A stretch of 64,000 bases of DNA from Escherichia phage SUT_E520. The notes below the pieces were generated by a model. It had not been told where the DNA came from. It saw only the letters and a program-made list of their open reading frames with translations, and did not search any database. The stretch lies in sequence record OQ990040. One strand, 5' to 3'. Positions 1 through 58,339 of this stretch are shown here, piece by piece (the first letter of the stretch is position 1; every line of letters begins with the position of its first letter). A program made the translations under genes and the position numbers.

Positions 1-53
1 ACATCCATCCCTTCAGGGGACATAAGATCTGGTACTAATACATCATTTGCCAT
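1..53 (-). CDS. hypothetical protein, N-terminal fragment (gene continues leftward out of window)
   Basis: ATG at 53-51 on minus strand with AGGAGG RBS (revcomp of 57-62); frame open to window edge; immediately downstream of the pb5-like gene stop. Confidence 0.3.
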   Translation of the reverse strand, partial: MANDVLVPDLMSPEGMD

Positions 54-63
54 ATTTCCTCCT

Positions 64-2163
64 TTAGGTAAGGCGTTGAATTATAAGTTTAATATTTGGT
101 AAGCATGCTTTCATGCCAATTATATTGCTCATAGAGGATTCTAACCAAATAGAGATATTATTATTTCCATCATTTCTCATATAATATGTTAGAGTATAGT
201 AACCCGTTTGACCTACTGATCCCGGCAACCCAGATACCCAGTACGGAGTTGGAGTATACCCAGCAGCCTGTAATTTACAAGCATTTACTACAGTACCTTT
301 AATAGTAAAAAATGGTACATATTCTCCTGCAGGTAGGGACAATATTTGGTGAAGTTTTTTATCGATAGTATTGCCACCCATTCTGAACCTACTATCTCCA
401 TATTCGGCGCCTTTAGATAGCATTTCCGTAGGATTAAAGCAGCCAATACCTCCTGCAGACAACCATGTGTCATCCAGGAACTCCATAGTACATACAATTG
501 CGCCATTTCTACTACTATTAAGATCTAGTCCCACGGTGCCAACATGCACGGAACCATTACCCTGAAATACTATGTTACCAGATAGTACAGTACTTCCGCT
601 ACCACCTAGAAGTCTTAAAGGTAAAAGATTCTCACTCCAAACATCTCCATAATTGCTGCCTATTTTTGGAGGATTACTAGAAACATACCAAGATGCTGAA
701 GGTAAAAAGTTATAAATACTAACTACATTAGTATTTAAACCACCAACGTTACCACCNNNNNNNNNNNNNNNNNNNNNNNNNNNNNNNNNNNNNNNNNNNN
801 NNNNNNNNNNNNNNNNNNNNNNNNNNNNNNNNNNNNNNNNNNNNNNNNNNNNNNNNGAAACATACCAAGATGCTGAAGGTAAAAAGTTATAAATACTAAC
901 TACATTAGTATTTAAACCACCAACGTTACCACCTTTAATACTTGGTGCGTTATTGCTTTCCGTAGTGGGCAGCCCAAATGTTGCTATGCCAGAAACTCCA
1001 GTAGAGGGGGCACCCATACTCAAGTTACACCCAACATCACGAAAATCAGCTCTGCTACCTACATTAAAGTTTTTCTCAACAAAGTTAATAAACTTCCATG
1101 ACGTATTATTAACATTAACCCCTTTAATAATAAACTCTCTTGGGCTAAGTTTAATATCATTGCCAGTAAATAGCCCACTATCAATACTGTATCCTGAGCC
1201 ATTGTATACTAGATTGGTAACATACCAAGTAATTTTAGATGGATAAATACCGAGGTGCTCACTATATATACCTATAGGCCCATTAGCAGCATCATTCGGA
1301 TCACCCATACTTTCCCAATAAGCATAGTTAGTGGGATCAGCACGTGCGAAACCTACAGAGTACTTAGGAGCCGAGGGATTGCTAGGGTTATCTATAAAGT
1401 TAAGAGCCCCAGAACTAGAAGCACCGTGCACAGCTCCAGCAGTGGTATAGTTAGGCCCTTCCATACCGTAAAGAACTCTATTGCAAGATCTACCACGAAC
1501 ATATATGGCGTTAAATCCAAAGTTTCTAGCTCCGGGATGCCTAACGTAGTCGCTAGGGATAGTTATGGATCCTGAGCTGGGCACAATATATCCTGAACCA
1601 TCCCAGGCAGACTTATAAAGAGCGGCACCACCTAAGTACATTGCACTAGATGCAAATCCTCTACGCCCACTAAAGGCGCCAAACATATGCTGACATCCAG
1701 TACCATCTCTAAGCTTCTGGGGAATAGTTCCACTAGTTCCACTGTTAAAATAACCTACATCAAGGGATAGATCAGCACTAGCTGTTATTTGTGTTTTTAA
1801 GCCACCCTGGGACATGACCTGTGGATTTATAATTCCGTACGCCTTAGCACCTACCCCCATAGACATACCGGATAACATATGTCTAGAGCCATCTGAGAAC
1901 TCAATCTCCGTCAGCACAACTCTATTAGGATCATTATTATGTAACTGGGTAATTCTGCTAGGCATATCAGACCAGTAGTAATCTCCAGCACCTTGATCTA
2001 GCCTTAACCCTGTGGAGTGAGTTTCTGTTATGATAACATGGGGCATATCTGAATGGAATATGGTCTGAGAGTCAGGATTAATATGTTGATTAGTATCTCC
2101 GCCACTACCCCTGCGCAGAGAGAGTATAGATTTATTATTTAGCTTGCCAGCGAAAAAACTCAT
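64..2163 (-). CDS. oad: receptor-binding tail protein, pb5-like (FhuA-binding RBP); frame spans a 100-N scaffold gap with duplicated flanks, true length about 640 aa
   Basis: 699-aa ORF; N-terminus MSFFAGKLNNKSILSLRRGSGG and overall Gly/Ser/Asn-rich composition match my recollection of T5 pb5; divergently adjacent to an Llp-like lipoprotein gene as in T5; 33 X plus a repeated 27-aa stretch are a scaffolding artefact. Confidence 0.55.
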   Translation of the reverse strand: MSFFAGKLNNKSILSLRRGSGGDTNQHINPDSQTIFHSDMPHVIITETHSTGLRLDQGAGDYYWSDMPSRITQLHNNDPNRVVLTEIEFSDGSRHMLSGMSMGVGAKAYGIINPQVMSQGGLKTQITASADLSLDVGYFNSGTSGTIPQKLRDGTGCQHMFGAFSGRRGFASSAMYLGGAALYKSAWDGSGYIVPSSGSITIPSDYVRHPGARNFGFNAIYVRGRSCNRVLYGMEGPNYTTAGAVHGASSSGALNFIDNPSNPSAPKYSVGFARADPTNYAYWESMGDPNDAANGPIGIYSEHLGIYPSKITWYVTNLVYNGSGYSIDSGLFTGNDIKLSPREFIIKGVNVNNTSWKFINFVEKNFNVGSRADFRDVGCNLSMGAPSTGVSGIATFGLPTTESNNAPSIKGGNVGGLNTNVVSIYNFLPSASWYVXXXXXXXXXXXXXXXXXXXXXXXXXXXXXXXXXXGGNVGGLNTNVVSIYNFLPSASWYVSSNPPKIGSNYGDVWSENLLPLRLLGGSGSTVLSGNIVFQGNGSVHVGTVGLDLNSSRNGAIVCTMEFLDDTWLSAGGIGCFNPTEMLSKGAEYGDSRFRMGGNTIDKKLHQILSLPAGEYVPFFTIKGTVVNACKLQAAGYTPTPYWVSGLPGSVGQTGYYTLTYYMRNDGNNNISIWLESSMSNIIGMKACLPNIKLIIQRLT
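757..856. other. scaffold gap (100 N) with about 77-bp duplicated flanks (680-756 equals 857-933)
   Basis: run of n; identical sequence gaaacataccaagatgctgaagg...accaccaacgttaccacc on both sides. Confidence 0.95.
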
Positions 2164-2182
2164 AAGTTCTCCAAAAATTTAA

Positions 2183-2211
2183 TTGCCTATATTGCTATAA
2201 TTCTGTATAAT
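2183..2211 (+). promoter_or_regulatory. sigma70-type promoter upstream of llp (-35 TTGCCT, 17-bp spacer, -10 TATAAT)
   Basis: TTGCCT at 2183-2188, TATAAT at 2206-2211; AGGAGA RBS before ATG at 2243. Confidence 0.45.
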
Positions 2212-2242
2212 AGTATTATAAATTAAACATAGGAGAATGTAA

Positions 2243-2476
2243 ATGAAAAAATTATTTTTAGCTATGGCAGTGGTACTTCTTTCGGCTTGCTCTACTTTTG
2301 GTCCTAAAGATATTAAATGTGAGGCCTACTATGTACAAGATCATGTGAAATATAAGGCTAATGTTTTTGATAGGAAAGGGGATATGTTTTTGGTGTCACC
2401 AATTATGGCCTATGGGTCTTTTTGGGCTCCCGTAAGCTACTTTACTGAGGGGAATACATGTGAGGGAGTTTTCTAA
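2243..2476 (+). CDS. llp: lytic-conversion lipoprotein Llp-like (FhuA-blocking superinfection exclusion)
   Basis: 77 aa; signal peptide MKKLFLAMAVVLLSAC with lipobox LSAC; small Cys-containing mature part; divergent from oad as in T5. Confidence 0.65.
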   Translation: MKKLFLAMAVVLLSACSTFGPKDIKCEAYYVQDHVKYKANVFDRKGDMFLVSPIMAYGSFWAPVSYFTEGNTCEGVF

Positions 2477-2767
2477 GTAAAAACGACCTTAGTAACTATC
2501 ACCACTTAAGATAATCCTAGCGCAGAATTAGTCCAGGATGCCACACAAGACACTAGGGAAGGTATAATAAGAATATTTATACTAATCACTGCAATTGCTA
2601 GGGTATTCCAAATACCATACTCATAGGAGCATGAAAGATATGTCAAATAAAAGAAAGAACAGACGTGGAGAAGTGTACGAAGCGTGGGTTAATATTTACG
2701 GATTTGGTTTTGTATTATTCTTAATCTTCGTAGGTTTTTGGTTAGCAGCTATGGCGGGGTGGCTATA

Positions 2768-2923
2768 ATGGAATGGGTAATTATTGGCATATTCGTCTTA
2801 TTGATACTTCTCTTTGCAGGCTTACGTGTAATAGATACCTCTGTAACCCAAACAGAGATTAAATTAATGCAGTTGAGCAATAGATTATCTAGAATTGAAA
2901 CTTTATTAGAGGAGCGTAAATAA
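2768..2923 (+). CDS. small single-pass membrane protein, tandem paralog 1
   Basis: ATG at 2768; N-terminal TM helix MEWVIIGIFVLLILLFAGL followed by charged coiled-coil tail ending RIETLLEERK. Confidence 0.4.
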   Translation: MEWVIIGIFVLLILLFAGLRVIDTSVTQTEIKLMQLSNRLSRIETLLEERK

Positions 2924-3030
2924 TGGAATGGGTAATTATTGCACTACTGGGGATTGTGATTATTGGGCAATGTATCTTAGATAATCACTTAGCTAGAATC
3001 GAAACCTTACTATCGGAGAAACATAAATGA
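2923..3030 (+). CDS. small single-pass membrane protein, tandem paralog 2 (35 aa)
   Basis: ATG overlaps upstream stop (TAATG); MEWVIIALLGIVIIG...ARIETLLSEKHK shares N- and C-terminal motifs with paralog 1. Confidence 0.35.
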   Translation: MEWVIIALLGIVIIGQCILDNHLARIETLLSEKHK

Positions 3031-3221
3031 TGGAAGTGGCAATTACACTAATGGTAATATTAGTCTGGGTAATCCTCATTGTCTCTCGTATCGTGTATCT
3101 CCGCCTAAAAACTCTAGAAGCCCAGGTAAAACAACAACAAGTTATTCTAGAAAAGCTAGTACTACTGCAACGTTGTGATAGCACCCGTATTCTGCAAATT
3201 GAGAGGGAATTAGATGTTTAG
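3027..3221 (+). CDS. small single-pass membrane protein, tandem paralog 3
   Basis: ATGA start/stop overlap with paralog 2; TM helix then coiled-coil. Confidence 0.4.
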   Translation: MMEVAITLMVILVWVILIVSRIVYLRLKTLEAQVKQQQVILEKLVLLQRCDSTRILQIERELDV

Positions 3222-3459
3222 TATTATAATTGCTTTTATTATCGGGATACTCGCGGGAGTTTTCGGGACGACTGCGGCAATCAATAAGCATCGGGAATAT
3301 ATTGCGGGAGTGACGCGGGAGATTGCGGAAAGGGAGCGGAAGTTTGACGAGAAACGTGCGGAGTTTGAGCGAGAGTGGTCGGATGGATCTCGGGCGTCGC
3401 GGAAGAGATTCCGGGAGTTCAGACCAGAACACAGGTTTGATGACCCTTCTATGCGCTAA
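3214..3459 (+). CDS. small single-pass membrane protein, tandem paralog 4 (Arg/Glu-rich tail)
   Basis: overlaps paralog 3 stop; TM helix MFSIIIAFIIGILAGVFG then highly charged tail. Confidence 0.4.
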   Translation: MFSIIIAFIIGILAGVFGTTAAINKHREYIAGVTREIAERERKFDEKRAEFEREWSDGSRASRKRFREFRPEHRFDDPSMR

Positions 3460-3610
3460 TTCGACTTTTGTCAAATTTCATAAGATTACACATGGAGGTG
3501 TGTCCAGTGGCTCCCCAGATGAGAATGAGTCTCATTACCGCCCGGTACTTAGCAAGCTAATAGTCACGGCATGTTATCATTACACACCGTGACTATTTCA
3601 ACTTTAATTA

Positions 3611-4345
3611 TTACGCAACTTTTAATTTCTCAATATATTGTTGCGGGCTGCAACTATATTCTGCGCGTTCTTCCTCGGTCATACTTTCCCAACATAATTT
3701 CAAACGATCAGCTAGGAACTGATAATCATTATCATCATCGAGAGATTCATCGATAAAGGTTTCACCTATCAATGCAACGCCGATTGATAGAATATCGTTA
3801 ATGGCTTGCGCGTCCAGCGTTTTAAATCCGTATGATGCCGCCGCTGATAGCACGCCTTTATGATCGTCAATCATTGTAAAGTCAGCGTTTGGATATAATT
3901 GTTTAAATAATTCAAAATAATACGATTTATAAATGGCGTCTTTGCTGTGGTATATCTCGCTAACTTTATCAGCTTCAAAATATTTGTGTAGTGTATCGCG
4001 GGAAAATACACGGATATTACTATCACCACGACCGCGCAACCCTTGTTTACGCAAATAATAATAGTCCGACTTGCTCATTAGTCGAGCGGTGCAAATAATG
4101 TTTAAAGTATTTGCATCATTCATACATTGGCGCATATATTCAACCAATGGCAATAAAGTATCTTGCATTATTAAATGATGTTTGCAGGCTTCATTTTTAT
4201 ACTTATTTAAATCTAAATTGCCCTCACTATCAAAGCAAGGCGCTACACGATGGAAAGAATTAATGATAGTGCCGTCTAAATCCCAAATCATGACGCGGGA
4301 AATATGCGGGAAATTACGGGAAATATTCATAATAGCTTTATTCAT
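3611..4345 (-). CDS. dmp: HAD-family 5'-deoxyribonucleotidase, Dmp-like (pre-early)
   Basis: 244 aa; N-terminal HAD motif I IWDLDGTII; size and position match T5 dmp. Confidence 0.55.
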   Translation of the reverse strand: MNKAIMNISRNFPHISRVMIWDLDGTIINSFHRVAPCFDSEGNLDLNKYKNEACKHHLIMQDTLLPLVEYMRQCMNDANTLNIICTARLMSKSDYYYLRKQGLRGRGDSNIRVFSRDTLHKYFEADKVSEIYHSKDAIYKSYYFELFKQLYPNADFTMIDDHKGVLSAAASYGFKTLDAQAINDILSIGVALIGETFIDESLDDDNDYQFLADRLKLCWESMTEEERAEYSCSPQQYIEKLKVA

Positions 4346-4369
4346 TTGTTACGTTCTCCATTAAAGGGA

Positions 4370-4469
4370 NNNNNNNNNNNNNNNNNNNNNNNNNNNNNNN
4401 NNNNNNNNNNNNNNNNNNNNNNNNNNNNNNNNNNNNNNNNNNNNNNNNNNNNNNNNNNNNNNNNNNNNN
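4370..4469. other. scaffold gap (100 N)
   Basis: run of n. Confidence 0.95.
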
Positions 4470-4646
4470 GCGCGCGAATACCACAAAATAAAGCAAATAG
4501 GCAAGTAATTTTTTCATTTATATTTGCTTTGCCCTACTTGACAAAATCTAAAAAGCTCGTGGTAACGATAAACGGCTTATCCCCTTATGATGGGATGGCT
4601 AAAAACTTTATTGCGTTCTGGAGCGTTTTAGGCGCATTCTAGCCTT

Positions 4647-5223
4647 GTTGATAACTTATCCCCAAAAGCAAAAATGAAATTTTCCTAGTTATCCACTTGA
4701 CTTTTATTTTCCAGTGGATAACTACTTATTTTATGAAATAAATTAATTGACTTTTATTTGTTAGTATGCATCGGAAAGATAGCAGACTAATAATTGCTAG
4801 AATGATAATCATGCTGGTGGATTGTAACGACCTGAATTATTAGCAGACTATTAATCACGGAAAAATCTCATTAGCCAACTAACTATTTCATGATATATAA
4901 TATACATATAAATTAATGAGAAATAATAACTATAAGAAATCATCTAGCTAAGTGAGAACCACTATCATTTAAGTTATACACAAAGTTATCCACAGCACTT
5001 TTTGACTTGACACGATAGGCGGCGNNNNNNNNNNNNNNNNNNNNNNNNNNNNNNNNNNNNNNNNNNNNNNNNNNNNNNNNNNNNNNNNNNNNNNNNNNNN
5101 NNNNNNNNNNNNNNNNNNNNNNNNTATACAGTAGGATAAGCTGTTGATAAGTCTGTTGATAACGCCTCAAAATGGCTAGGATTTTGTCAAGTCAAATCGT
5201 GCTGTTGATAAGTCTGTGGATAA
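4647..5223. promoter_or_regulatory. cluster of DnaA-box-like 9-mers (TTATCCACA and one-mismatch variants), both orientations
   Basis: perfect TTATCCACA at 4986-4994 and its reverse complement at 5215-5223; near-consensus boxes at 4647-4664, 4689-4697, 4713-4721, 5142-5150, 5154-5162, 5203-5211. Confidence 0.45.
5025..5124. other. scaffold gap (100 N)
   Basis: run of n. Confidence 0.95.
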
Positions 5224-5224
5224 C
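5139..5224. repeat. two copies of a 25-bp direct repeat gctgttgataagtctgt(t/g)gataac, each carrying two DnaA-box-like motifs
   Basis: copies at 5139-5163 and 5200-5224. Confidence 0.6.
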
Positions 5225-5240
5225 TTAAATAATAGTGTTT

Positions 5241-5404
5241 CTCACTTCCATTCTTAAATACGAATCAGTATCATTCGCATTTCACTATCTAACTAATAAT
5301 CATTCCACTTTTTAAATGAGAATCGTTTCACTTCCTGAATAATTCTCACTTCCATTCTTAAATGCGAATTATTATCATTCACATTCCGCTTTTTAAATGA
5401 GAAT
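5241..5404. repeat. two families of direct repeats in an AT-rich noncoding segment
   Basis: ctcacttccattcttaaat(a/g)cgaat at 5241-5265 and 5345-5369; ctttttaaatgagaat at 5308-5323 and 5389-5404. Confidence 0.5.
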
Positions 5405-5433
5405 GATTCTCATTATCATTCGTATTCAGGCAA

Positions 5434-5451
5434 GCAGGGCAATTGCCCTGC
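5434..5451. repeat. 18-bp perfect palindrome gcagggcaattgccctgc
   Basis: self-complementary sequence directly upstream of the iteron array. Confidence 0.6.
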
Positions 5452-5456
5452 GCTTT

Positions 5457-6056
5457 TGTGCAAATCCGACATTTGCCCCCATGGATTACGCGTGGGCGTG
5501 TATGTGCGAATCCGACAATTTTTGGTAGTGTGCAAATCCGACCCGAAAAATTTTTATAATGTGCGGATCCGACAATGAATTTTCCTAAAAACTCCAGCAA
5601 TCCGATGCTGCGCATCAATCCTGTGGAATTAACTAGAATATGTGCAAATCCGACATGGGTTTATTTGTGCGAATCCGACAAGATTTTTGTGACTTCGATT
5701 GGAGAGTGTGTGATTGTAAGAGTTTGGGGAGAAGTTGAGAGATCGAGAAAAATTTGAGGGAACTGCGAGAGGGGCGCATGTTTGGTGCGTAGCACCTGAT
5801 TTGCGGGGATTTTGGGGAAGAGTTGAGAAGATTTGGGTTAATTTGAGATTAGTGCAGATAAAGTAAAATCTTATTAGCTAAATGGGGCAAAATAGCTTGA
5901 CAAGTGAAAGTTTCTGTGGCTCTAAAAACTCAGGCAATCATGGGCCTTCGGCCCGAAATAATGCTGCCATTTTCAAGAGATTATATGTTCCTAAAAACTT
6001 AGGCAATTGTGCAAATCCGACCATAAATTTCTAGAAACACAATGTGCAAATCCGAC
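5457..6056. repeat. iteron array: 8 copies of 14-bp TGTGC(A/G)(A/G)ATCCGAC
   Basis: copies at 5457, 5502, 5529, 5559, 5641, 5666, 6008 and 6043, irregular spacing, same orientation. Confidence 0.7.
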
Positions 6057-6100
6057 AGTAATTTCTGGAAATGTGTTTTCAAAAAATGTCTCCTAGAAAT

Positions 6101-6173
6101 AACCGCCCTCCCCATAACCGCCCTGTATTAAACCGCCTAGTATATGTTCCTAGAAACTTAGGAGAACCGCCCT
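6101..6173. repeat. four copies of AACCGCC(C)T
   Basis: copies at 6101, 6116, 6131 and 6165. Confidence 0.5.
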
Positions 6174-6593
6174 AGAAAGAGTGAGTATTTCGTGAGAACT
6201 CTGGAGTTTCTAGGAAAGTGTTGTGCCATCCTAGCAGATGAGCGGCAACAGGTGTATCATCTTGAATGTAAATTATGTGGTCAAAAGTTTTACTTTTATT
6301 TTAAATATAAGATCCCCCAGGGTTCTCATATAGAGCTTTGCCCCCGCCAGAAGGTCTCGTGATGTTTCTAGCAATTTATATTAAATTACTTATTAACTTG
6401 TCCTGTCGCTCCGTATCCTCCGCTACAAGTTAGTAATTTTAAATTACTGAACCACCACACCTTCTGTGTGGCAACTCTAAATGGTTAATTCTATTAACTC
6501 ATAGAGTTATGATAACATACATTTAGCTATCTGTCAACGAGAGTTTGTATTTGAGTCTCGGTACAGGTATTGTGCACCGAGACATGCAGGATC

Positions 6594-7478
6594 TTACAGT
6601 AACTCTTGGTATGCTTTTTGGTACGCCTCAGTGTCAGTAGGTGTATCTTTTGCTAGTGCAATTAGTTCATCTGTTATCTGAATGTTCGTATTATAACGTG
6701 TGTGGAACTCGTTAGGAATTTCTAGGTATCTATTGATGAATGCTGCAGCAAGCGGTGTGACTAAACCAATCTCTAGAGATAGCTTAACTTGTTTTTCGTA
6801 GATTAAATATTGAGAATCAGATGGGGTTGGTGGGGTTACATCAATTTTCTCGGGTTCTTTTTCTGGAAGCAATGGATTATTATATAATGCTTCATCTGGA
6901 AGCACAGATTTACGCTCTTTAAATATATAAGTTTCTAGATCCGATGCTTTAGATCCTGAGTATACCGCAAAGATGCTAGCTTTACCCTGTGATGCCCTAA
7001 CTGGTAAATAACTAGTAGGATAGCTTCTTAATGCATCATGGAATGGACTTCCTGAGTACTTGTATGTATCTCCATAGAGATCATCAATATTCATTCGTTC
7101 ATCTTCAAAGATGTGAAATGACTTAAATGGTGGAATGGTGAAGTATTCCATCTGTAACCCATAAACTAAGAAACGATGTGCATATGCACTGATTTTTAAG
7201 ACTGTGAATGCTTTTTCACCTTCTTTATGGGCGTTGCCTTTTGAAGTAACTTGGTAACGTTTACAAAACATCTCTACTAGACGTTTCTCATTAATACTAA
7301 GGGTGGAGTACAGTCGTCCACTTAATCCTATAAGTGCATCGAACATAAATGCTAGTTTATCTTTTTCTTCCTGGGTTAGTTCAGGAAATGGAAGTACTTT
7401 AGCATCAGGAACACTATTATTTTTCTTAGGTTTTGTTTTACCAGCGTTTTGTCTTAGTTTATCTTTAAAGTTATACAT
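6594..7478 (-). CDS. hypothetical protein (294 aa), first gene of the minus-strand early string
   Basis: long ORF, co-directional with neighbours. Confidence 0.5.
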   Translation of the reverse strand: MYNFKDKLRQNAGKTKPKKNNSVPDAKVLPFPELTQEEKDKLAFMFDALIGLSGRLYSTLSINEKRLVEMFCKRYQVTSKGNAHKEGEKAFTVLKISAYAHRFLVYGLQMEYFTIPPFKSFHIFEDERMNIDDLYGDTYKYSGSPFHDALRSYPTSYLPVRASQGKASIFAVYSGSKASDLETYIFKERKSVLPDEALYNNPLLPEKEPEKIDVTPPTPSDSQYLIYEKQVKLSLEIGLVTPLAAAFINRYLEIPNEFHTRYNTNIQITDELIALAKDTPTDTEAYQKAYQELL

Positions 7479-7555
7479 TATTATCTCCCATTTTTAAGGT
7501 CTGGATGACCTTCTTTTTATTTTAGAGCCTCCGTAGAGGCTCATGTATTAGAGGA

Positions 7556-8170
7556 TTAGCTACCTCTCTTATCTTCATTAATAGCAGCTCCCAACGCCTC
7601 CATAATAGCATCCTCTAAACTTCCATGTTTACCAGGATTATTAAAATGAATAGTACAAACAGAACTCCTAGAAACTCCAGCATCCGCAGGTGCTACGCTT
7701 CGCATATCAGATTCAAAAGCTTCTTGAGTATGTTTTAGCTGTACAGATGGGCCGTAATCTTCCACAAACTTATATGACTGCGTACTACTTACCACACCCC
7801 CACAAGGAATATTGTGCATATCCGACATTAATCTTTTATCGGAGTTATTCAGCATTGCGATTGGTCCGGACGGCCATGAATCTCGAATAGTTACTGGAGC
7901 ACTAGGACGGTTCACCTCAGTCTTCACGAGTTTATAACCAGCGTCTATTAGTGCATTAATCAGGTTATCAGCCGGGATGCGAGCCGTGCCAAAAATCTTA
8001 CGAGCATCTTCGAGCTTACTCTCAAGATCTTTACAGGCTTTAAGGTCGGTGTGTGCAAATGTTAGCTTCATAGATTTGAATTGTACAGTAGCAGTTAAAT
8101 CTTTAAAGCTGTAATCCCATGTGTTCAGTTCATGGTCTGGTACTACTTGAATAGGCTGTTGTGTAAACAT
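7556..8170 (-). CDS. hypothetical protein (204 aa)
   Basis: ORF in minus-strand gene string. Confidence 0.5.
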   Translation of the reverse strand: MFTQQPIQVVPDHELNTWDYSFKDLTATVQFKSMKLTFAHTDLKACKDLESKLEDARKIFGTARIPADNLINALIDAGYKLVKTEVNRPSAPVTIRDSWPSGPIAMLNNSDKRLMSDMHNIPCGGVVSSTQSYKFVEDYGPSVQLKHTQEAFESDMRSVAPADAGVSRSSVCTIHFNNPGKHGSLEDAIMEALGAAINEDKRGS

Positions 8171-8355
8171 TATTTATTCTCCAGTTTGTCTAACAGTTTA
8201 TGGGCTGCTAGATTATATTGTTTAAGTTCACGGTTAAGGATTTGGTTCTCACACTTTAACTCTAGATTCTTGTTGTTAAGAATGTTGCAGATTAGTAGAA
8301 GTGCTAGTATTAGTAACAGAGAACCTACGAGCATTAAAAGAAAAAGAGTTTCCAT
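8170..8355 (-). CDS. small membrane protein (61 aa)
   Basis: hydrophobic N-terminus then coiled-coil; abuts neighbours. Confidence 0.35.
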   Translation of the reverse strand: METLFLLMLVGSLLLILALLLICNILNNKNLELKCENQILNRELKQYNLAAHKLLDKLENK

Positions 8356-8588
8356 TATTTGATTCCCATGTAACGTTTAAGATATACGATGAAGTCTTCT
8401 GCTGTATGCTCTACACTACCTTGAGCTACGAATAGCTTGAGAGCTTCACGTTGTAGTTTGAGCCCCGCTACCTCACCACGTAATTTTACTACATCTTCTG
8501 CTAATTCTCTGGCTCTACGCATAATAGCAAAAGATACAAGTACTACGATGAATAACATAACTACTAAAATAATTGCTATGATTTCCAT
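8355..8588 (-). CDS. small membrane protein (77 aa)
   Basis: N-terminal TM helix IIAIILVVMLFIVVLVSFAI. Confidence 0.35.
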   Translation of the reverse strand: MEIIAIILVVMLFIVVLVSFAIMRRARELAEDVVKLRGEVAGLKLQREALKLFVAQGSVEHTAEDFIVYLKRYMGIK

Positions 8589-8866
8589 ACTAACATCCAG
8601 CTTTTATCACACATTTGGGCATGATCTATCAATTCATTCATTGATGTATTGTTATCATAAATGCACTCTAGTATATACCTTCTGTCAAATTCGTCAACCA
8701 AATATTCTACGTTATTTATTACTACTTTATACAGATCTGGGACTAGAGAGCATGTATTTGGTATGGGGCGGCTGCTTAATTCTATTTCATTATAGCCCCA
8801 TGTTGTTTTAAATAGTTTGTTACTAAGTGCTGCTAATGGATTTGACCATATAATATAGCTACTCAC
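8576..8866 (-). CDS. hypothetical protein (96 aa)
   Basis: ORF in gene string. Confidence 0.4.
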   Translation of the reverse strand: MSSYIIWSNPLAALSNKLFKTTWGYNEIELSSRPIPNTCSLVPDLYKVVINNVEYLVDEFDRRYILECIYDNNTSMNELIDHAQMCDKSWMLVWKS

Positions 8867-9305
8867 TATTTATCTCCATTCTTAACTTTGAAAACTTATT
8901 ATACCAAACTATATGATTATCGTCAATTACAAATTTATGATAACATGCTGGTACGGTATAAGTTCCATAATCCGTGACACGCTGCACAACCTTGTGTGCG
9001 CACAGTCGACAACCATGCCCTTCTAAATGAGATCTAGCAGTTTGCCAGTAATAACCATCATGATCTGGACAATAGATCTCGACTTGCTGTTGCATTGTTT
9101 TATAATTTACATGCTCATATCCAAAGAAAGCTCCATGAACTGCAACAGCTTTCTTGATAAATATAATATTTAGTGCTTCTTGTTGAAAGTCGGGATGTAG
9201 CTGCTTAATCTTGGTTCTATTAATAGACCCATCCGATTTGATAAACCTATTTATTGGGAAGTTGTTAGCTTCCTCGATTAATAATTCATTTATTTTATCA
9301 CGCAT
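8859..9305 (-). CDS. hypothetical Cys/His-rich protein (148 aa), possible Zn-binding or HNH-like
   Basis: motifs CPDHDG, GHGCRLCAHK. Confidence 0.4.
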   Translation of the reverse strand: MRDKINELLIEEANNFPINRFIKSDGSINRTKIKQLHPDFQQEALNIIFIKKAVAVHGAFFGYEHVNYKTMQQQVEIYCPDHDGYYWQTARSHLEGHGCRLCAHKVVQRVTDYGTYTVPACYHKFVIDDNHIVWYNKFSKLRMEINSE

Positions 9306-9306
9306 G

Positions 9307-9525
9307 TTACTTATTAAATAACTTATTTAGTTTGCAGTATAAGTCTTTTGCTTGTTCTTCGGATAGCCAAATAATATTGGGGGATGTTCCTCCACCTTTT
9401 TGAGCTAATCGTACTGTTTTATTTTTGCTTATTTCACAGGTTACAGCAGATTGATCTTCCGTAGGGCTATATCTAGCCTTTAGGTAGTTATCTAATGTTT
9501 TCATACTAAGTTCCTTGAAACACAA
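9307..9525 (-). CDS. hypothetical protein (72 aa)
   Basis: ORF in gene string. Confidence 0.35.
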   Translation of the reverse strand: MCFKELSMKTLDNYLKARYSPTEDQSAVTCEISKNKTVRLAQKGGGTSPNIIWLSEEQAKDLYCKLNKLFNK

Positions 9526-9558
9526 AAGGTCAGAACAATTAAGTCCTGGCCTCTAGAA

Positions 9559-9930
9559 TTAGTGGAGTTGTTTACCACTTCTTAAAATAGTGGCCGTTTC
9601 CATAAGATTTAACGTTATATCACGCTTTTTGATTTGTTTGTCCAGTTCATCGGTACGTTTGCCAATGTAAGCGTTAATAGCCATATTCATAGCTGAGGCG
9701 AGATCTTCTTTGGTTATCTCTTCATTATCTAAAGCTAATTTAGCTAAAGAATCGAAAGTACTAGAAAGTCCTATAAGATCTGAGGTTTCACTGGCCAAAA
9801 TAGGGTTAATATTATCTATTGTTACTTCCAACATAGAGTTAACAATATCTTCTCCGTCTACTAGACCAGATTCAATATTACTCTCCCATTCCTTCATCTG
9901 CTCCAGCAATGGATTTTTCTTTTCTGTCAT
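9559..9930 (-). CDS. hypothetical acidic protein (start uncertain; internal Met chosen to limit overlap)
   Basis: ORF 9559-9996 overlaps upstream gene by 119 nt; internal Met at 9930 is more plausible. Confidence 0.35.
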   Translation of the reverse strand: MTEKKNPLLEQMKEWESNIESGLVDGEDIVNSMLEVTIDNINPILASETSDLIGLSSTFDSLAKLALDNEEITKEDLASAMNMAINAYIGKRTDELDKQIKKRDITLNLMETATILRSGKQLH

Positions 9931-10339
9931 GGTAGAGGTTTCCTGTGTCAGTTGGTAAGAAAGCCGATTGAGCTTTAGGTGGATGTTGTTTAGCAATCCA
10001 GTTAAGAATCAGTACACGACTAGGAACAATATCGGTATTATACCAGAAATCATGAACCCATTGACGAGCATCCTCAAACTTACCAAATTTATACGCTTTC
10101 TTGAACAATTCAAACCCAAAACAATCTGGTGTAAAATCTACTTCACGATATTGAATTACTTTAGAACCAGTTAAATCTTGGATAGCTGCATTAATTTCTG
10201 TATGGGAGAATTTTGTTTCGTGAAACTTATTAAAGAATCGGTAGTTGAAACGTCCGTTCGTTTCGACAAATAACTGGATAAAGAGATCGTTAAATTGGTT
10301 ATCAAACCAGTAATTCTGTAGTTGTTGTAGTGCTGTCAT
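9878..10339 (-). CDS. hypothetical protein (153 aa)
   Basis: ORF in gene string. Confidence 0.45.
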   Translation of the reverse strand: MTALQQLQNYWFDNQFNDLFIQLFVETNGRFNYRFFNKFHETKFSHTEINAAIQDLTGSKVIQYREVDFTPDCFGFELFKKAYKFGKFEDARQWVHDFWYNTDIVPSRVLILNWIAKQHPPKAQSAFLPTDTGNLYHDRKEKSIAGADEGMGE

Positions 10340-54927: not shown

Positions 54928-55549
54928 TGATTTTTATTAGCTGAACTCTGATTACCGAGTCATTTTGGCTCGGTTTTATCCGTACTCAAGACCAATGATA
55001 GCACCATCCGGAAAATTTTACTTGCAGGATGCTCAAAATCTTGATATAATATTTATATTGAATTGAGAGATATTAGTAAAAATTGATTTTGCTAATTTTT
55101 CTTGTTTACAATCCGCGATACGGAACAGTTAGGCTGCCCAATTAAGGGTTGTTTTAACTGTTACGTGTTAGTTTTTAAACAAATAGTTAATAGAATACTT
55201 AGCGATCTGCGTCCCGTAGGAACCCTGGTAAGGCCTCGAAGCAACCTAGATAGAGGTGGTTGTGAAGTGAGACGGGAGGAGTGAAAAACTCCGAGACGTG
55301 ATTCTGTAAGTTATATTGCATCTAGTATGAGCTAGTACATGAAGCATTAGGTGAGCAAATCTGGCTTAGCGGCCATCCTCAAGGATTTGTGCGGTATAGC
55401 AAAGCAGCAGCGCAGCGTGAAAGTGGAAGTTGCCACCCCACTTCAGTATTTGCGATTAATTTGTTGAGAAATTGACAGTAACAGTTGTTCTATTCTTTCT
55501 GAATAGTCCTAAAGAAAACTTATTTCATTTCCAACACAGGAGTATTGTT

Positions 55550-58339
55550 GTGTTCTCAATCCTACAAGGTCATGCAGGATTTCATCGCGATTTAGCCACA
55601 GGCAATTGGCGAGAAGTTAAAGCAGAAGACTATCTTTTTGCTAAAAGATTTTCCTCAAAGCATCCTGAAGGTAAACCAGCTTCAATGCCCTTCAAGTTTG
55701 ATGTAATTGATGAAGTTGATCCTCAAACCCTAGTAGAAATGCTTCCTCTTATGAGACGTTTAACGTCTGACCCTCATATCGTTGCGGTACGAGGTCGATG
55801 TCTTACACCTAAAAATAATGTGCGACGTAAGAAGGGCAACTTTAATGTATCTAACCCAAGTCATATAATTGCAATGGACGTGGATGGTATTGTAGATACA
55901 GGTGGTTGCAACAAGTTTGATCTTGTTGGCATGGCTCGACATATTATTAGAATGTTAAATAGTATTAGTGAGGATATGTTTCCTCTTGATGCAGGGTTTA
56001 TCGCTCATGCATCGTCTTCGGCTGGGCTAAAACCAGGTATCCGAATGCACTTAATACTAGAATCTAATGTTAAAGTAACTCAGGGTCAAATCAAATTCTT
56101 ATTTACATCTATCAACGAAAGTAGTAGACAAAAGTATGGCTTTGATATTGCCGACTTAGCTTATTACTCTTCCGTACAGCTCCACTATTTTGCAGATCCG
56201 TTATTTACCGATGGTATAGTAGATCCGTTTAAAGCGGAGGGTGCTTCACGTCTGGTATTTGTTAAGGGTTCTAAAGTAAATTTACCCAATAATCTGGTTG
56301 ACTATGAAACAACTAGAGGTGAGTTTAAGGAGGAGTTTTACTCTTTACTCGATCAAATTAAAGGTAAAAAAGCTGCCTCTGATAAAGTAGAGGAAACTAT
56401 CAGCGAACTAGAAGAAGCTGAGGATGGAGTGTATCTACGTATCATACCTAAACTCTATCACAGAGCCTTAGAGGATGGTGTTGATTTTGCATGGCTAGAA
56501 AAAGAAATCCGTCCAGCCTTATCAGAATATATTGCAACTAAAGATAACAGTCGCAATATTCAAGATTACTTTAATAACGGTCGTAAACAGGCTCTGAAAG
56601 CATTTGTTAATAATTCTAAACGTGATATACCTGATGTTTTAAAGGGTATTCCACTTAAAAAGCTAGAAACTAATTCTCTAGAAACTGATAACTTCTTGAA
56701 ATTAAATACTGTACCACCAGAAGGTTATATGACTTTTGTAAAAGCAAGTCTAGGTACAGGTAAAACTACAGCGGTTGTGCGTTGGTTAGATTCAGGAGTT
56801 ATTAAAGGTAATTTCTTAGCAATTACCAATACTAGAGCACTGGTATCTTCAAATGCCAAGAAATTTAGTGCAGGACAATATGATAAGTCTGTAGATATGC
56901 TTAATTTTAAGCGGGGTGCTATTGACCGTATGTCCACAACTATTCACTCTTTGCATAAATTCAAGAGTTTTATTGGTCAAATTGATGCAATCTTTATCGA
57001 TGAATGTGATGCAGTAATGAATGACCTATTATTCGCCCCGGTTGTTAAACAACGTCGCGAGTGTATTCAGGTTCTTCGGGATATTCTTGCAACTGCAAAA
57101 ATCATTATATTATCTGATGGGGATATTAGTGCAGAAACAATTGAAGCATATGGTTCTTTGATTGAGTTTGATAAACCAGTAGCATTTTATAACCATCACC
57201 GTAAAATGCTATCAAAAGCTCATGCTTATGAGTTCCCGGATGAATCCAGTATTTGGGTTGCACTTCAGACTTCTCTAGAGATGGGTGAGAAATCTATCCT
57301 AGTATCTGACTGTGGGCCGGATGAACTGAATGAGAAGGGTATGGCATTGCGTCGTAATACGGGTGCGTTAGTTAAGGAAATCCACTCAAATTCTACATCC
57401 GATGTAGATATTCGACGTATTCTGGATTACACAACTAATGAGCTAATTGATCAACAAATTGATTGCTTATTATGTAGTCCATCCGTAACAAGTGGTGTTG
57501 ACTTCAACTATTTTGATAACGTATTCGTTATTACTAGAACCAGCAACCAAGCGCCAAACATGCGTTTCCAAGCAATCAGGCGCGACCGTGGCGCTCAGAA
57601 CATTTATTATTTTATTGATAAATCTACGAGTGGATTCTCCGCAGGTTCTGAGCAATATAACATTGACGAAGGTTGGCTGGAGTTAGCACAACAATTATAC
57701 GCACGTCGTAGAGAGCTGGAATCTAGGAATTATACTAGTACTTTACGTTATTACTTGCTTGATCAGGGTGCAACTATTGATATTTTCAGTGAAAGCTGGG
57801 GAACTATCGAAGGTGCTGGGAAGGAATATACGGAAGAGCGAATCAAAGCTATTTTATATTCAACTCCTGATTATTGTGCTCCACGTCATGCTGATGCGTA
57901 TGAAGCTAAACTACTTCTTGTTCGCTACTATCATCTTGAGTCTATTAAAGATGTAACAGTTGAGCATGTTGAACAATATATCAAGGATAAACCTAATGAT
58001 CGAGCGGCATTCTTCCATAAAATGCACGAGATGTTCTGGGAAGATATTAAGAAGTGTTCAAATGTCACTATCAAACCATTCATAGAAGCTCTGAAAGGTA
58101 AGAAGAAAGATTTCTTCCTTAAAACAGGTCAGAGTGCTAACCCAAAATATGCCAGAATGTATCTTGGTATGATGGGTATTGGTAAGGATATGAACACTGA
58201 AAATATTGTAGACTGGTACAGAACCTATTGTAAAATCGAGTGTATGCCAATCCCCTATAAGTTTATGACTGATGAGGAGAAACATATGCATGATGAAGCA
58301 ATGGCAGAGCTAGGTGCTAGAAATGACAGTGAAGAATAA
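55550..58339 (+). CDS. large replication protein: N-terminal primase-polymerase-like region plus P-loop helicase (origin-binding/helicase-like)
   Basis: GTG start at 55550 after AGGAG; HIIAMDVDG acidic motif; Walker A SLGTGKTT; Walker B IFIDECD. Confidence 0.55.
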   Translation: MFSILQGHAGFHRDLATGNWREVKAEDYLFAKRFSSKHPEGKPASMPFKFDVIDEVDPQTLVEMLPLMRRLTSDPHIVAVRGRCLTPKNNVRRKKGNFNVSNPSHIIAMDVDGIVDTGGCNKFDLVGMARHIIRMLNSISEDMFPLDAGFIAHASSSAGLKPGIRMHLILESNVKVTQGQIKFLFTSINESSRQKYGFDIADLAYYSSVQLHYFADPLFTDGIVDPFKAEGASRLVFVKGSKVNLPNNLVDYETTRGEFKEEFYSLLDQIKGKKAASDKVEETISELEEAEDGVYLRIIPKLYHRALEDGVDFAWLEKEIRPALSEYIATKDNSRNIQDYFNNGRKQALKAFVNNSKRDIPDVLKGIPLKKLETNSLETDNFLKLNTVPPEGYMTFVKASLGTGKTTAVVRWLDSGVIKGNFLAITNTRALVSSNAKKFSAGQYDKSVDMLNFKRGAIDRMSTTIHSLHKFKSFIGQIDAIFIDECDAVMNDLLFAPVVKQRRECIQVLRDILATAKIIILSDGDISAETIEAYGSLIEFDKPVAFYNHHRKMLSKAHAYEFPDESSIWVALQTSLEMGEKSILVSDCGPDELNEKGMALRRNTGALVKEIHSNSTSDVDIRRILDYTTNELIDQQIDCLLCSPSVTSGVDFNYFDNVFVITRTSNQAPNMRFQAIRRDRGAQNIYYFIDKSTSGFSAGSEQYNIDEGWLELAQQLYARRRELESRNYTSTLRYYLLDQGATIDIFSESWGTIEGAGKEYTEERIKAILYSTPDYCAPRHADAYEAKLLLVRYYHLESIKDVTVEHVEQYIKDKPNDRAAFFHKMHEMFWEDIKKCSNVTIKPFIEALKGKKKDFFLKTGQSANPKYARMYLGMMGIGKDMNTENIVDWYRTYCKIECMPIPYKFMTDEEKHMHDEAMAELGARNDSEE

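What the first reader, a model, noticed from the sequence alone, without database searches (positions are those of the whole stretch)
5241..6173. Dense non-coding iteron landscape: 8 copies of TGTGCRRATCCGAC plus palindrome and other repeats
About 900 bp with no convincing ORF contains an 18-bp perfect palindrome, eight same-orientation copies of a 14-bp iteron, two families of 16-25-bp direct repeats and four AACCGCCCT copies. This is not a CRISPR array (no uniform repeat-spacer periodicity). It resembles a binding-site array for a phage or host DNA-binding protein; position between pre-early and early regions fits an injection-stop or transfer-control locus.
Basis: partly seen in the sequence, partly recalled or inferred. 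Interest (0 to 1): 0.55.

Follow-up and report, generated by a model that had tools for sequence, protein, structure and literature searches.

The report
Phage T5 injection-stop repeat region

Summary
Eight exact same-strand copies of TGTGCRRATCCGAC are present (0.01 expected by chance), along with an 18-bp perfect palindrome, a 67-nt direct repeat and clustered AACCGCC(CT) copies.

The window is a Tequintavirus. It is 100% identical to phages SUT_E1520 and SUT_E420 and 91.6% identical to T5. In the T5 record the same stretch is annotated "injection stop signal (iss)", inside the left terminal repeat.

Davison (bioRxiv 10.1101/866236) calls it "Repeat Region 3". The iteron is his DRD repeat (nine copies in T5) and the 67-nt repeat is his DRE1/DRE2.

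After mapping, the major T5 nick falls at 5453/5454, 3 nt before iteron 1. The terminal repeat ends at 5922/5923, so iterons 1-6 lie inside the repeat and iterons 7-8 outside it.

The new part is modest. The whole layout and the iteron core GTGCRAAWYCGAY persist in Klebsiella phages and in Vibrio phages of another subfamily. Their proteins are only 31-45% identical to T5's. The array has decayed in a Proteus phage.

No phage protein I compared tracks the presence of the iteron. The binder and the exact role of the repeats (transfer control, terminal-repeat end processing or packaging, or an origin-like function) remain unproven.

Verdict: already known, moderate-to-low interest.

The parts
5125..5247 (+). 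IRD'-spacer-IRC' inverted-repeat element. It is cut on its left by the N run. It carries four DnaA-type boxes in two pairs, each pair 3 bp apart: TGTTGATAA at 5142-5150, 5154-5162 and 5203-5211, and TGTGGATAA at 5215-5223. Its partner arm (IRC, with consensus TTATCCACA at 4986-4994) lies at 4950-5012.
   Evidence: families D8, I1, I9. Matches the description in Davison 2020. Coordinates transferred through the pairwise alignment with T5.
5239..5409 (+). DRE1 (5239-5305) and DRE2 (5343-5409). This is an AT-rich 67-nt direct repeat (GC 27-30%) containing AATRCGAAT-N7-ATTCRCATT palindromes. The published estimate of the first-step-transfer shear point maps to about 5403.
   Evidence: D4, D3, D6; composition; literature; coordinate transfer.
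5434..5451 (.). 18-bp perfect palindrome GCAGGGCAATTGCCCTGC. With the following GCTTTT it scores as terminator-like on the + strand.
5446..5454 (-). Nick motif CCCTGCGC|T. The T5 major single-strand interruption (7.9%) maps between 5453 and 5454 on the minus strand, 3 nt before iteron 1.
   Evidence: T5 annotation plus alignment. The same CCCTGCGC|T context occurs at the T5 18.5% and 32.6% nicks.
5457..5470 (+). Iteron 1 (DRD): TGTGCAAATCCGAC
5503..5516 (+). Iteron 2: TGTGCGAATCCGAC
5529..5542 (+). Iteron 3: TGTGCAAATCCGAC
5560..5573 (+). Iteron 4: TGTGCGGATCCGAC
5641..5654 (+). Iteron 5: TGTGCAAATCCGAC
5666..5679 (+). Iteron 6: TGTGCGAATCCGAC. This is the last copy inside the terminal repeat.
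5690..5860 (+). G-rich, C-poor purine tract (GC skew +0.47 to +0.64) holding three GAGTTTGGGGAGAAGTTGAGA-type repeats. An equivalent tract is present in the Klebsiella, Proteus and Vibrio relatives.
   Evidence: (D7)
5854..5929 (+). Most conserved block of the region. It contains TTGACA and the right end of the terminal repeat, ...TTTCTGTGGCTC|TAAAAACTCAGG, with the end at 5922/5923. It is the only part that BLAST can align with Klebsiella phages.
   Evidence: T5, BF23 and MM-1 annotate the same end.
5942..5954 (.). Hairpin GGGCCTTCGGCCC just outside the terminal repeat. Conservation is 0.99 among close relatives.
6008..6021 (+). Iteron 7: TGTGCAAATCCGAC. It starts at the 86th base beyond the terminal-repeat end.
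6043..6056 (+). Iteron 8: TGTGCAAATCCGAC
5982..6003 (+). TATATGTTCCTAAAAACTTAGG repeat, probably the DRA family of the literature (the published name is not matched to a sequence in the text I read). Further copies are at 5576-5597, 5913-5934 (this one spans the terminal-repeat end) and 6141-6162. An inverted copy is at 6201-6217.
   Evidence: D5, I3, I13
6101..6173 (+). Cluster of AACCGCCCT copies (6101, 6116, 6165) plus AACCGCCTA at about 6131. ATAACCGCCCT also occurs at the equivalent place in the Klebsiella and Proteus phages.
7813..7826 (+). Outlying iteron copy TGTGCATATCCGAC. It is antisense inside the T5.019-homologue gene. Several relatives have the exact consensus at this position.

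Best explanation
The region is the conserved non-coding block at the right end of the terminal repeat of a T5-like phage (Tequintavirus). [quoted passage not shown]

**How the phage uses this part of the genome.** The left end of the genome enters the cell first, and transfer pauses after about 8%. The published shear point maps to about window 5403, just left of the iterons. Pre-early proteins A1 and A2 are then made, and transfer resumes.

**Order of the elements.**
1. Paired DnaA boxes.
2. AT-rich palindromic DRE repeats.
3. A palindrome followed by the major nick site.
4. Six same-strand 14-16-bp iterons (the DRD repeats).
5. A G-rich tract.
6. A highly conserved block that ends the terminal repeat at 5922/5923.
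7. Two more iterons and further short repeats.

**My inference.** The iterons are binding sites for one sequence-specific factor with a very conserved specificity. They act in cis at the boundary between DNA that is transferred first and DNA that is transferred second.

**Shown.** Identity with the T5 iss region. Selective conservation of the iteron core across genera and subfamilies. Its position relative to the nick and the repeat end.

**Inferred.** That a protein binds the iterons, and that binding controls the pause or the resumption.

**Probabilities.** Identity of the locus is about 0.97. For the role of the iterons themselves I give about 0.4 to transfer control, 0.3 to terminal-repeat end processing or packaging, 0.1 to an origin-like role and 0.2 to something else.
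For: **Identity of the locus**
- The window is 100% identical to phages SUT_E1520 and SUT_E420 and 91.6% identical to T5 over 96% of the query. Under the T5 match lie the features 'left terminal repeat', 'injection stop signal (iss)' and 'major DNA single-chain interruption'.
- A base-by-base alignment places the nick at 5453/5454 and the terminal-repeat end at 5922/5923.
- The literature describes IRD'spacerIRC' with DnaA boxes, two 66-bp DRE repeats and nine DRD repeats at this place, with the shear point in DRE2. T5 has nine copies of this iteron in the region.

**Conservation of the iteron**
- Among 28 unique close relatives, iteron columns are more conserved than the other columns (0.91 against 0.84, p = 7e-4).
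- Klebsiella phage vB_Kpn9-P3 can be aligned by BLAST over only about 75 bp, yet it has 10 copies of the same iteron in the same layout.
- Vibrio phages GRLPWR and JSF10 keep 9-10 copies of GTGCAAAWYCGAY after the same DnaA boxes and nick motif. Their A1 protein is only 31-34% identical to T5's.
- Flanks of the motif carry almost no information.
- Pairs of iterons occur only on T5-like contigs: 2 small phage-like fragments among 185,579 species' genomes, and 43 stretches in the viral collection, all on contigs of 96-123 kb.
Against: - No experiment ties the iterons to the pause. In the searchable literature the signal has never been mapped by mutation, and the 2020-2026 papers I read still call the mechanism unknown.
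- The pause occurs without new protein synthesis. The iterons lie to the right of the estimated shear point, so at the moment of arrest they may still be outside the cytoplasm.
- The array straddles the terminal-repeat end and also sits near the right genome end. That fits an end-processing or packaging role just as well.
- Proteus phage 2 has A1, A2 and the DnaA-box/DRE-like/nick modules, but only one degenerate iteron.
- A homing-endonuclease insertion of about 0.55 kb inside the array is tolerated in SHSML-45 and NR01.
Confidence: 0.8

Rival explanations
1. The iterons mark the right boundary of the terminal repeat for the packaging machinery. The left end is injected first, so the right end should be packaged first. 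Terminase would then start at the cut at 5922/5923. The iterons on both sides of that cut would be recognition sites for the small terminase subunit or an accessory factor, as in P1 pac, SPP1 pac or lambda cosB.
For: - The terminal-repeat end lies between iteron groups in T5, BF23 and MM-1. The nearest copies start 258 (T5, BF23) or 256 (MM-1) bp before the end and at the 86th base beyond it.
- In Vibrio phage GRLPWR the 8010-bp repeat ends immediately before an iteron.
- The block ending at the cut is the best conserved part of the region, and the only part that aligns with Klebsiella phages.
- The array is unique in the 64-kb window.
- The packaging direction and the pac/cos analogies come from general phage biology and my own knowledge, not from a test here.
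Against: - No data on the T5 packaging signal were found in the searchable literature.
- The distances from the cut (about 240-470 bp on the left) are larger than for typical cosB or pac sites.
- The small terminase subunit is only 44% identical between the T5-like and Vibrio phages although the iteron is unchanged. It is 51% identical in the Proteus phage, where the array has decayed.
- chee24 and saus176N annotate the repeat end about 206 bp further left.
Confidence: 0.3
2. The block is an iteron-type replication origin or a terminal-repeat duplication element. DnaA boxes, an AT-rich unwinding region and direct iterons would be bound by a phage initiator such as the UL9-like origin-binding helicase D2/T5.108 (window 55472-58339).
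For: - The order DnaA boxes, AT-rich DRE (GC 27-30%), direct iterons matches plasmid and lambda-type origins.
- The phage encodes a UL9-like origin-binding helicase with no known target site.
- There is no iteron array next to that gene or anywhere else in the window.
- The reverse complement of the iteron, ATTCGCAC, resembles HSV box 1, GTTCGCAC.
- The minus-strand nick directly left of the array would leave a 3' end that could prime synthesis through the repeat. This is inference only.
Against: - Electron microscopy placed the main T5 origin near the genome centre, as cited by Davison.
- Iteron spacing is irregular (25-81 bp) rather than about 22 bp.
- The helicase lacks the RVKNL recognition motif, and its homology to UL9 is limited to the helicase core.
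- Its N-terminal 400 residues (which contain the helix-turn-helix predicted by Wong et al.) are only 18-44% identical in the Vibrio phage, which keeps the iteron. They are 40-80% identical in the Proteus phage, which lost the array.
Confidence: 0.1
3. The iterons are weak DnaA sites that extend Davison's DnaA model. Host DnaA, partly membrane-bound, would load on the four strong boxes and spread over the same-orientation iterons, tethering the entering DNA.
For: - The first nine bases, TGTGCAAAT, match the reverse-complement DnaA box TGTGNAWAA at 8 of 9 positions.
- They have the same orientation as the four strong boxes at 5142-5223 (sequence; box definition).
- DnaA specificity is invariant across hosts, which would explain why the motif is identical in Vibrio and enterobacterial phages.
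Against: - The most invariant iteron positions, CCGA at 10-13, lie outside a 9-bp DnaA box. The tolerated A/G position corresponds to a conserved T of the box.
- The Vibrio variants begin with GGTGC, which removes another box position.
- The spacing is far larger than in the arrays of weak sites in oriC.
Confidence: 0.1
4. The repeats have no function of their own. They would be duplication debris in a non-coding spacer, conserved only because the phages are closely related.
For: Within Tequintavirus and Epseptimavirus the whole region is 80-100% identical, so conservation among these phages alone proves little.
Against: - The motif core is kept in phages whose spacers cannot be aligned and whose proteins are 31-45% identical. 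Orientation and order relative to the nick motif and the repeat end are kept as well.
- Chance expectation for the motif is 0.01 copies per window.
Confidence: 0.02

Closest known systems
Bacteriophage T5 injection stop signal (iss) region, also called Repeat Region 3 of the left terminal repeat (Heusterspreute et al. 1987; GenBank AY543070 annotation; Davison 2020, bioRxiv 10.1101/866236)
   Same: - Same locus, collinear at 91.6% identity.
- Same named elements: IRD'spacerIRC' with paired DnaA boxes, DRE1/2, the palindrome, DRD iterons, DRA-like repeats, the nick site and the terminal-repeat end.
   Different: - Eight iterons here against nine in T5. The ninth lies in a 45-bp T5 segment that the window lacks.
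- Point differences in several copies.
- The left edge is cut by an N run.
Iteron-type replication origins (pSC101, P1, F, RK2, lambda ori)
   Same: DnaA boxes, an AT-rich stretch and direct non-palindromic repeats in one orientation.
   Different: - Irregular spacing of 25-81 bp, plus a 342-bp gap.
- No adjacent initiator gene.
- The array straddles a genome terminus.
- The mapped T5 origin is elsewhere according to the literature.
Terminase recognition sites with repeated motifs on both sides of the cut (P1 pac hexamers, SPP1 pacL/pacR, lambda cosB R sites); comparison from my own knowledge
   Same: Short oriented repeats lie on both sides of a defined genome end, and the array occurs once per genome.
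   Different: - The distances from the cut are larger.
- No binding data exist.
- T5 makes 10-kb terminal repeats, not cohesive ends or headful cuts.
HSV-1 oriS boxes bound by the origin-binding protein UL9 (box 1 GTTCGCAC; PMC12543377)
   Same: The reverse complement of the iteron contains ATTCGCAC or ATTTGCAC. The phage encodes a UL9-like SF2 helicase.
   Different: The DNA-binding domain and the RVKNL motif of UL9 are not detectable in the phage protein. The resemblance may be coincidence.

Membership tests
T5 iss region / Repeat Region 3 | Sequence homology and collinearity with T5 AY543070 9140-10149 and beyond | tested here: met
   91.6% identity over 96% of window 5125-6400, with T5's iss, left-terminal-repeat and nick features under the match.
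T5 iss region / Repeat Region 3 | Lies at the right end of the left terminal repeat, between the pre-early genes and the first early gene | tested here: met
   The repeat end maps to 5922/5923 and the T5.018 homologue lies at 6594-7478(-). The pre-early side is interrupted by a 100-N run.
T5 iss region / Repeat Region 3 | IRD'spacerIRC' with DnaA-type boxes in pairs 3 bp apart | tested here: met
   Boxes at 5142-5150/5154-5162 and 5203-5211/5215-5223. The inverted partner is at 4950-5012.
T5 iss region / Repeat Region 3 | Two ~66-bp DRE repeats and a series of DRD repeats | tested here: met
   67-nt repeat at 5239-5305 and 5343-5409. Eight DRD copies here against nine in T5.
T5 iss region / Repeat Region 3 | Major single-strand interruption at about 7.9% of the genome | tested here: inconclusive
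   The motif CCCTGCGC|T is present at the homologous site, 5446-5454. A physical nick cannot be seen in sequence.
T5 iss region / Repeat Region 3 | Acts in cis to pause DNA transfer after about 8% of the genome | not testable with these tools
   Needs infection experiments. According to the papers read, it is not mapped by mutation even in T5.
Iteron-type replication origin | DnaA boxes plus an AT-rich region plus direct iterons | tested here: met
Iteron-type replication origin | Regular iteron spacing with helical phasing, and an adjacent initiator gene | tested here: not met
   Spacings are 46, 26, 31, 81, 25, 342 and 35 nt. The only origin-binding-protein gene is 50 kb away.
Iteron-type replication origin | Initiator binding and origin firing | not testable with these tools
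   Indirect test only. Divergence of the UL9-like helicase does not follow iteron presence.
Terminase recognition site (pac/cos-like) | Next to a defined genome terminus and unique in the genome | tested here: met
   The terminal-repeat end at 5922/5923 is flanked by iterons. There is no other array in the 64 kb.
Terminase recognition site (pac/cos-like) | Bound by the small terminase subunit and required for cutting and packaging | not testable with these tools
   Only an indirect comparison was possible: small terminase is 44% identical in the Vibrio phage and 51% in the Proteus phage.
CRISPR array | Uniform repeats separated by unique spacers of similar length | tested here: not met
   The repeats are 14-16 bp and the spacing ranges irregularly from 25 to 342 nt. 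Rfam finds nothing significant.

The most novel reading that the evidence does not exclude
The iteron core GTGCRAAWYCGAY is the same in Escherichia, Salmonella, Klebsiella and Vibrio phages of two subfamilies. Meanwhile the neighbouring DRE repeats, the spacers and every phage protein I compared have diverged. The only other element in the block that behaves this way is the DnaA box, which is read by a host protein.

The iterons could therefore be read by an invariant factor that has not been identified. That factor could be a conserved gamma-proteobacterial protein, or a translocating machine that reads the motif in one direction. The iterons could then be the real determinant of the 8% pause or restart, or of where the terminal repeat ends.

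If the published shear point is accurate, the repeat end lies about 520 bp, roughly 176 nm of B-DNA, beyond it. By my recollection that is close to the length of the T5 tail. Iterons 7-8 and the conserved end block might therefore sit near the head-tail connector during the pause. This geometric point is speculation.
Probability: 0.25. Interest if true: 0.6.

Novelty: already known. Interest (0 to 1): 0.3.

Why it matters
Two-step DNA transfer by T5 has been unexplained since 1968, and papers from 2026 still call the mechanism of the pause and restart poorly understood.

The region found here is the accepted candidate for the cis-acting signal, so finding it adds nothing new in itself.

The comparison across subfamilies does sharpen the problem. 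It gives a short, deeply conserved, oriented motif and a precise map of it relative to the nick and the terminal-repeat end. That makes a concrete bait for pull-downs and a concrete target for deletion experiments. Those experiments could separate the transfer-control, packaging and origin explanations.

Tried and rejected
1. **Structured RNA.** An Rfam scan of 4470-6700 gave only two chance-level hits.
2. **Hidden small genes.** The four small ORFs tested from the stretch (5379-5618, 5575-5757, 5882-6034, 6192-6362) have no Pfam or PHROG match.
3. **Host chromosomal sites.** A scan for iteron pairs in 185,579 species' genomes found only two short MAG contigs, and both are T5-like fragments.
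4. **Neighbouring early genes as binder.** The T5.018 and T5.019 homologues are absent from the Klebsiella, Eos, Proteus and Vibrio loci that I fetched.
5. **A2, small terminase and the UL9-like helicase as binder, tested by co-variation.** None is unusually conserved in the Vibrio phages, which keep the iteron. All are more conserved in the Proteus phage, which lost the array. The helicase has no RVKNL motif.
6. **Fur boxes in the DRE repeats.** There is a 17/19 match at 5399-5417 against 0.03 expected. It is not conserved outside the Tequintavirus genomes checked (this window, T5, BF23), so I dropped it as a general explanation.
7. **Link to A1 alone.** Shewanella phage 1/4 has an A1 homologue but no iterons. 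It is not a T5-type phage, so this says little.
8. **tRNA T-arm relic.** The iteron differs by one base from GGTTCRAATCC, but there is no complementary stem. The resemblance only produced one false hit in a real tRNA.
9. **Common motif at both terminal-repeat cut sites.** The left cut (GAAGGTG|TGTCCAC) and the right cut (GTGGCTC|TAAAAAC) share nothing convincing.
10. **Older literature.** The Davison 2015 review and Bourguignon 1976 are not held in the library.
Full report
**1. The observation**

- The motif TGTGCRRATCCGAC occurs eight times exactly, always on the + strand, starting at 5457, 5503, 5529, 5560, 5641, 5666, 6008 and 6043. Dinucleotide-preserving shuffles of the window give 0.01 matches.
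- GCAGGGCAATTGCCCTGC at 5434-5451 is an 18-bp perfect palindrome.
- A 67-nt direct repeat lies at 5239-5305 and 5343-5409 at 82% identity. A TTCCTAAAAACTYAGG-type family has four copies.
- AACCGCCCT is present three times exactly, plus one variant, AACCGCCTA.
- The four small ORFs tested from the stretch match no protein family, and Rfam finds nothing significant.
- A 100-N run at 5025-5124 lies directly to the left. It is one of three such runs in the window, so the left flank is not reliably contiguous.

**2. What it is**

The window is a Tequintavirus genome.
- Region 5125-6400 is 100% identical to phages SUT_E1520 and SUT_E420, 99.9% identical to T5_ev212 and EC148, and 91.6% identical to T5. 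In all, 450 phage records match it.
- In the T5 record AY543070 the matching stretch carries three features. These are the left terminal repeat (1-10219), 'injection stop signal (iss)' (9140-10149) and a major single-strand interruption at 9748/9749.
- A pairwise alignment puts the nick between window 5453 and 5454 on the minus strand. That is inside CCCTGCGC|T, right after the palindrome and 3 nt before iteron 1.
- The same alignment puts the terminal-repeat end at 5922/5923, in ...TTTCTGTGGCTC|TAAAAACTCAGG.
- T5, BF23 (ends called with PhageTerm) and MM-1 annotate the same end. chee24 and saus176N place it about 206 bp further left.
- Iterons 1-6 are therefore inside the repeat, starting 465 to 256 bp before its end. 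Iterons 7-8 are outside, starting at the 86th and 121st bases beyond it.

**3. What is already published**

Davison (bioRxiv 10.1101/866236) calls this 'Repeat Region 3'.
- He lists the IRD'spacerIRC' inverted repeat with paired DnaA boxes, two 66-bp DRE repeats, several palindromes, nine DRD repeats and DRA copies.
- He places the estimated first-step shear point in DRE2.
- Adding the 80-bp difference in annotated left-terminal-repeat length between the two T5 records to his coordinates puts that point at about window 5403. This is indeed inside the second 67-nt repeat.
- T5 has nine copies of this iteron in the region, so the iteron is his DRD.
- He proposes that membrane-bound DnaA holds the DnaA boxes. 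He states that no role can be assigned to the other repeats.
- Papers from 2023-2026 still describe the signal as a repeat-rich non-coding region with an unknown mechanism.
- The finding is therefore a correct rediscovery of a known element.

**4. Comparative results that go a little further**

- *Close relatives.* Among 28 unique close relatives, iteron columns are more conserved than the other columns (0.91 against 0.84, Mann-Whitney p = 7e-4). The best conserved block is 5880-5955, around the repeat end.
- *Klebsiella phage vB_Kpn9-P3.* BLAST aligns it with the window only over about 75 bp, window 5854-5929. It nevertheless has the same order of elements: DnaA-box repeats, 35-bp AT-rich palindromic repeats, CCTGCGC, five iterons, a G-rich tract, the ...CCTGTGGCTCTAAAAAC block, five more iterons and ATAACCGCCCT twice. 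Bacteriophage Eos is similar. Davison's set already included Klebsiella, Pectobacterium, Providencia and Proteus phages, so this much agrees with his statement.
- *Vibrio phages.* As far as the searchable literature shows, Ermolyevavirinae had not been examined for this.
  - GRLPWR, whose A1 is 31% identical to T5's, has the DnaA boxes, CTCCTGCGCC and nine copies of GTGCAAATYCGAY on one strand. Its 8010-bp repeat ends immediately before one of them.
  - JSF10 has seven copies of GTGCAAAACCGAY and three of GTGCTAATTCGAT in the same layout.
- *Proteus phage 2.* It keeps the DnaA boxes, its own 57-bp repeats and the nick motif followed by a single degenerate copy, TATGTGCGTAATCGAC. It then has a different tandem array.
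- *Motif boundaries.* The flanks of the motif carry almost no information.
- *Distribution.* Pairs of iterons occur only on T5-like contigs.
- *Tolerance to insertion.* An insertion of about 0.55 kb carrying a homing endonuclease gene is tolerated inside the array in SHSML-45 and NR01.

**5. Who reads the iteron**

I could not identify a binder.
- The two neighbouring early genes are not conserved beyond close relatives.
- A2 is 41% identical in the Vibrio phage and 44% in the Proteus phage.
- The small terminase subunit is 44% identical in the Vibrio phage and 51% in the Proteus phage.
- The phage encodes a UL9-like origin-binding helicase (T5.108, called D2 by Wong et al. 2013, PMC3632103), at window 55472-58339. 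It matches Pfam Herpes_ori_bp and the herpes origin-binding protein structures only in the helicase core.
- HSV box 1 is GTTCGCAC (PMC12543377) and the reverse complement of the iteron contains ATTCGCAC. However, the phage protein has no RVKNL motif.
- The first 400 residues of that helicase are 18-44% identical in the Vibrio phage and 40-80% identical in the Proteus phage. This is the opposite of what co-variation with the iteron would predict.
- The first nine bases of the iteron are one mismatch from a reverse-complement DnaA box, and they point the same way as the four strong boxes. The invariant CCGA lies outside such a box.
- A Fur-box-like sequence (17/19) at 5399-5417 is unlikely by chance. 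It is not conserved outside the Tequintavirus genomes checked (this window, T5, BF23).

**6. How it most likely works**

- *Shown.* The locus is the T5 iss region. The iteron core is under selection across subfamilies. The array lies between the nick or shear point and the terminal-repeat end, and continues beyond that end.
- *Inferred.* The iterons bind one factor with a very stable specificity and act in cis at this boundary.
- *Rough probabilities for the role of the iterons.* I give 0.4 to control of the pause or restart of DNA transfer, which is the literature's assumption for the region as a whole. I give 0.3 to marking the right end of the repeat for terminase, 0.1 to an origin-like or repeat-duplication role and 0.2 to something else.
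- *Basis of the terminase reading.* The right end should be packaged first, since the left end is injected first. This rests on general phage biology, not on a test here.
- *Two facts that argue against a simple 'roadblock inside the cell' role.*
  - The iterons lie to the right of the estimated shear point.
  - The pause does not need new protein synthesis.

**7. Verdict**

The conservation in Vibrio phages, the exact map relative to the nick and the repeat end, and the negative co-variation tests are small additions. They make the open question easier to test but do not answer it.

Noticed in passing
window 757-856, 4370-4469, 5025-5124: There are three runs of exactly 100 N. The pieces between them are not collinear with any single close relative. 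In particular, dmp (3611-4345) is followed by the Repeat Region 2 fragment 4470-5024 and then directly by the iss region, so the A1, A2 and T5.011-017 equivalents are missing. This looks like a scaffold with gaps or a masked sequence.
   Followed up: partly
window 6200-6510, minus strand: This non-coding block is 99-100% identical to T5 while its flanks are about 90% identical. A strong promoter-like site (TTGACA, 17 nt, TATCAT with an upstream TG) at 6537->6509 points into it. The minus-strand RNA folds with z = -4.9. A long hairpin shows three double-sided compensatory changes among 10 unique relatives. It could be a small RNA or a conserved hairpin or terminator, and T5 has no annotation for it.
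   Followed up: partly
window 7813-7826 (+): An extra iteron copy, TGTGCATATCCGAC, lies antisense inside the T5.019-homologue gene (7556-8170, minus strand). Several relatives, including T5, carry the exact consensus at the same position.
   Followed up: partly
window 5446-5495; T5 loci L025 about 1337 and L026 about 1747: The three T5 major nick sites that I compared share more than the published Pu|GCGC consensus. All have CCCTGCGC|T, followed about 30 nt downstream by GATTACG or ATATTAC. The same pairing is seen in the Klebsiella, Proteus and Vibrio phages.
   Followed up: partly
window 5399-5417 and 3721-3739: Two sequences match the 19-bp Fur-box consensus at 17 of 19 positions (0.03 expected in the window). 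The first lies at the end of DRE2 and the second inside dmp. T5 and BF23 have 16/19 at the first site. Klebsiella, Eos and Vibrio relatives have none.
   Followed up: partly
window 55472-58339 (+): This gene encodes a UL9-like origin-binding SF2 helicase (T5.108, the 'D2' of Wong et al. 2013). Its DNA target is unknown. It is found in 909 phage records, nearly all from hosts of known Demerecviridae. No repeat array lies next to it.
   Followed up: partly
L009 (Shigella phage SHSML-45) and L011 (Salmonella phage NR01), between iterons 3 and 5: An insertion of about 0.55 kb carrying a homing endonuclease gene sits inside the iteron array. The exact spacing of the array is therefore not essential.
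   Followed up: no
L020 (Proteus phage 2), reverse strand about 5130-4960: About twelve tandem copies of AATAGAATGGYGRG lie on the early-gene side of the region, in a phage that has lost the T5-type iteron array.
   Followed up: no
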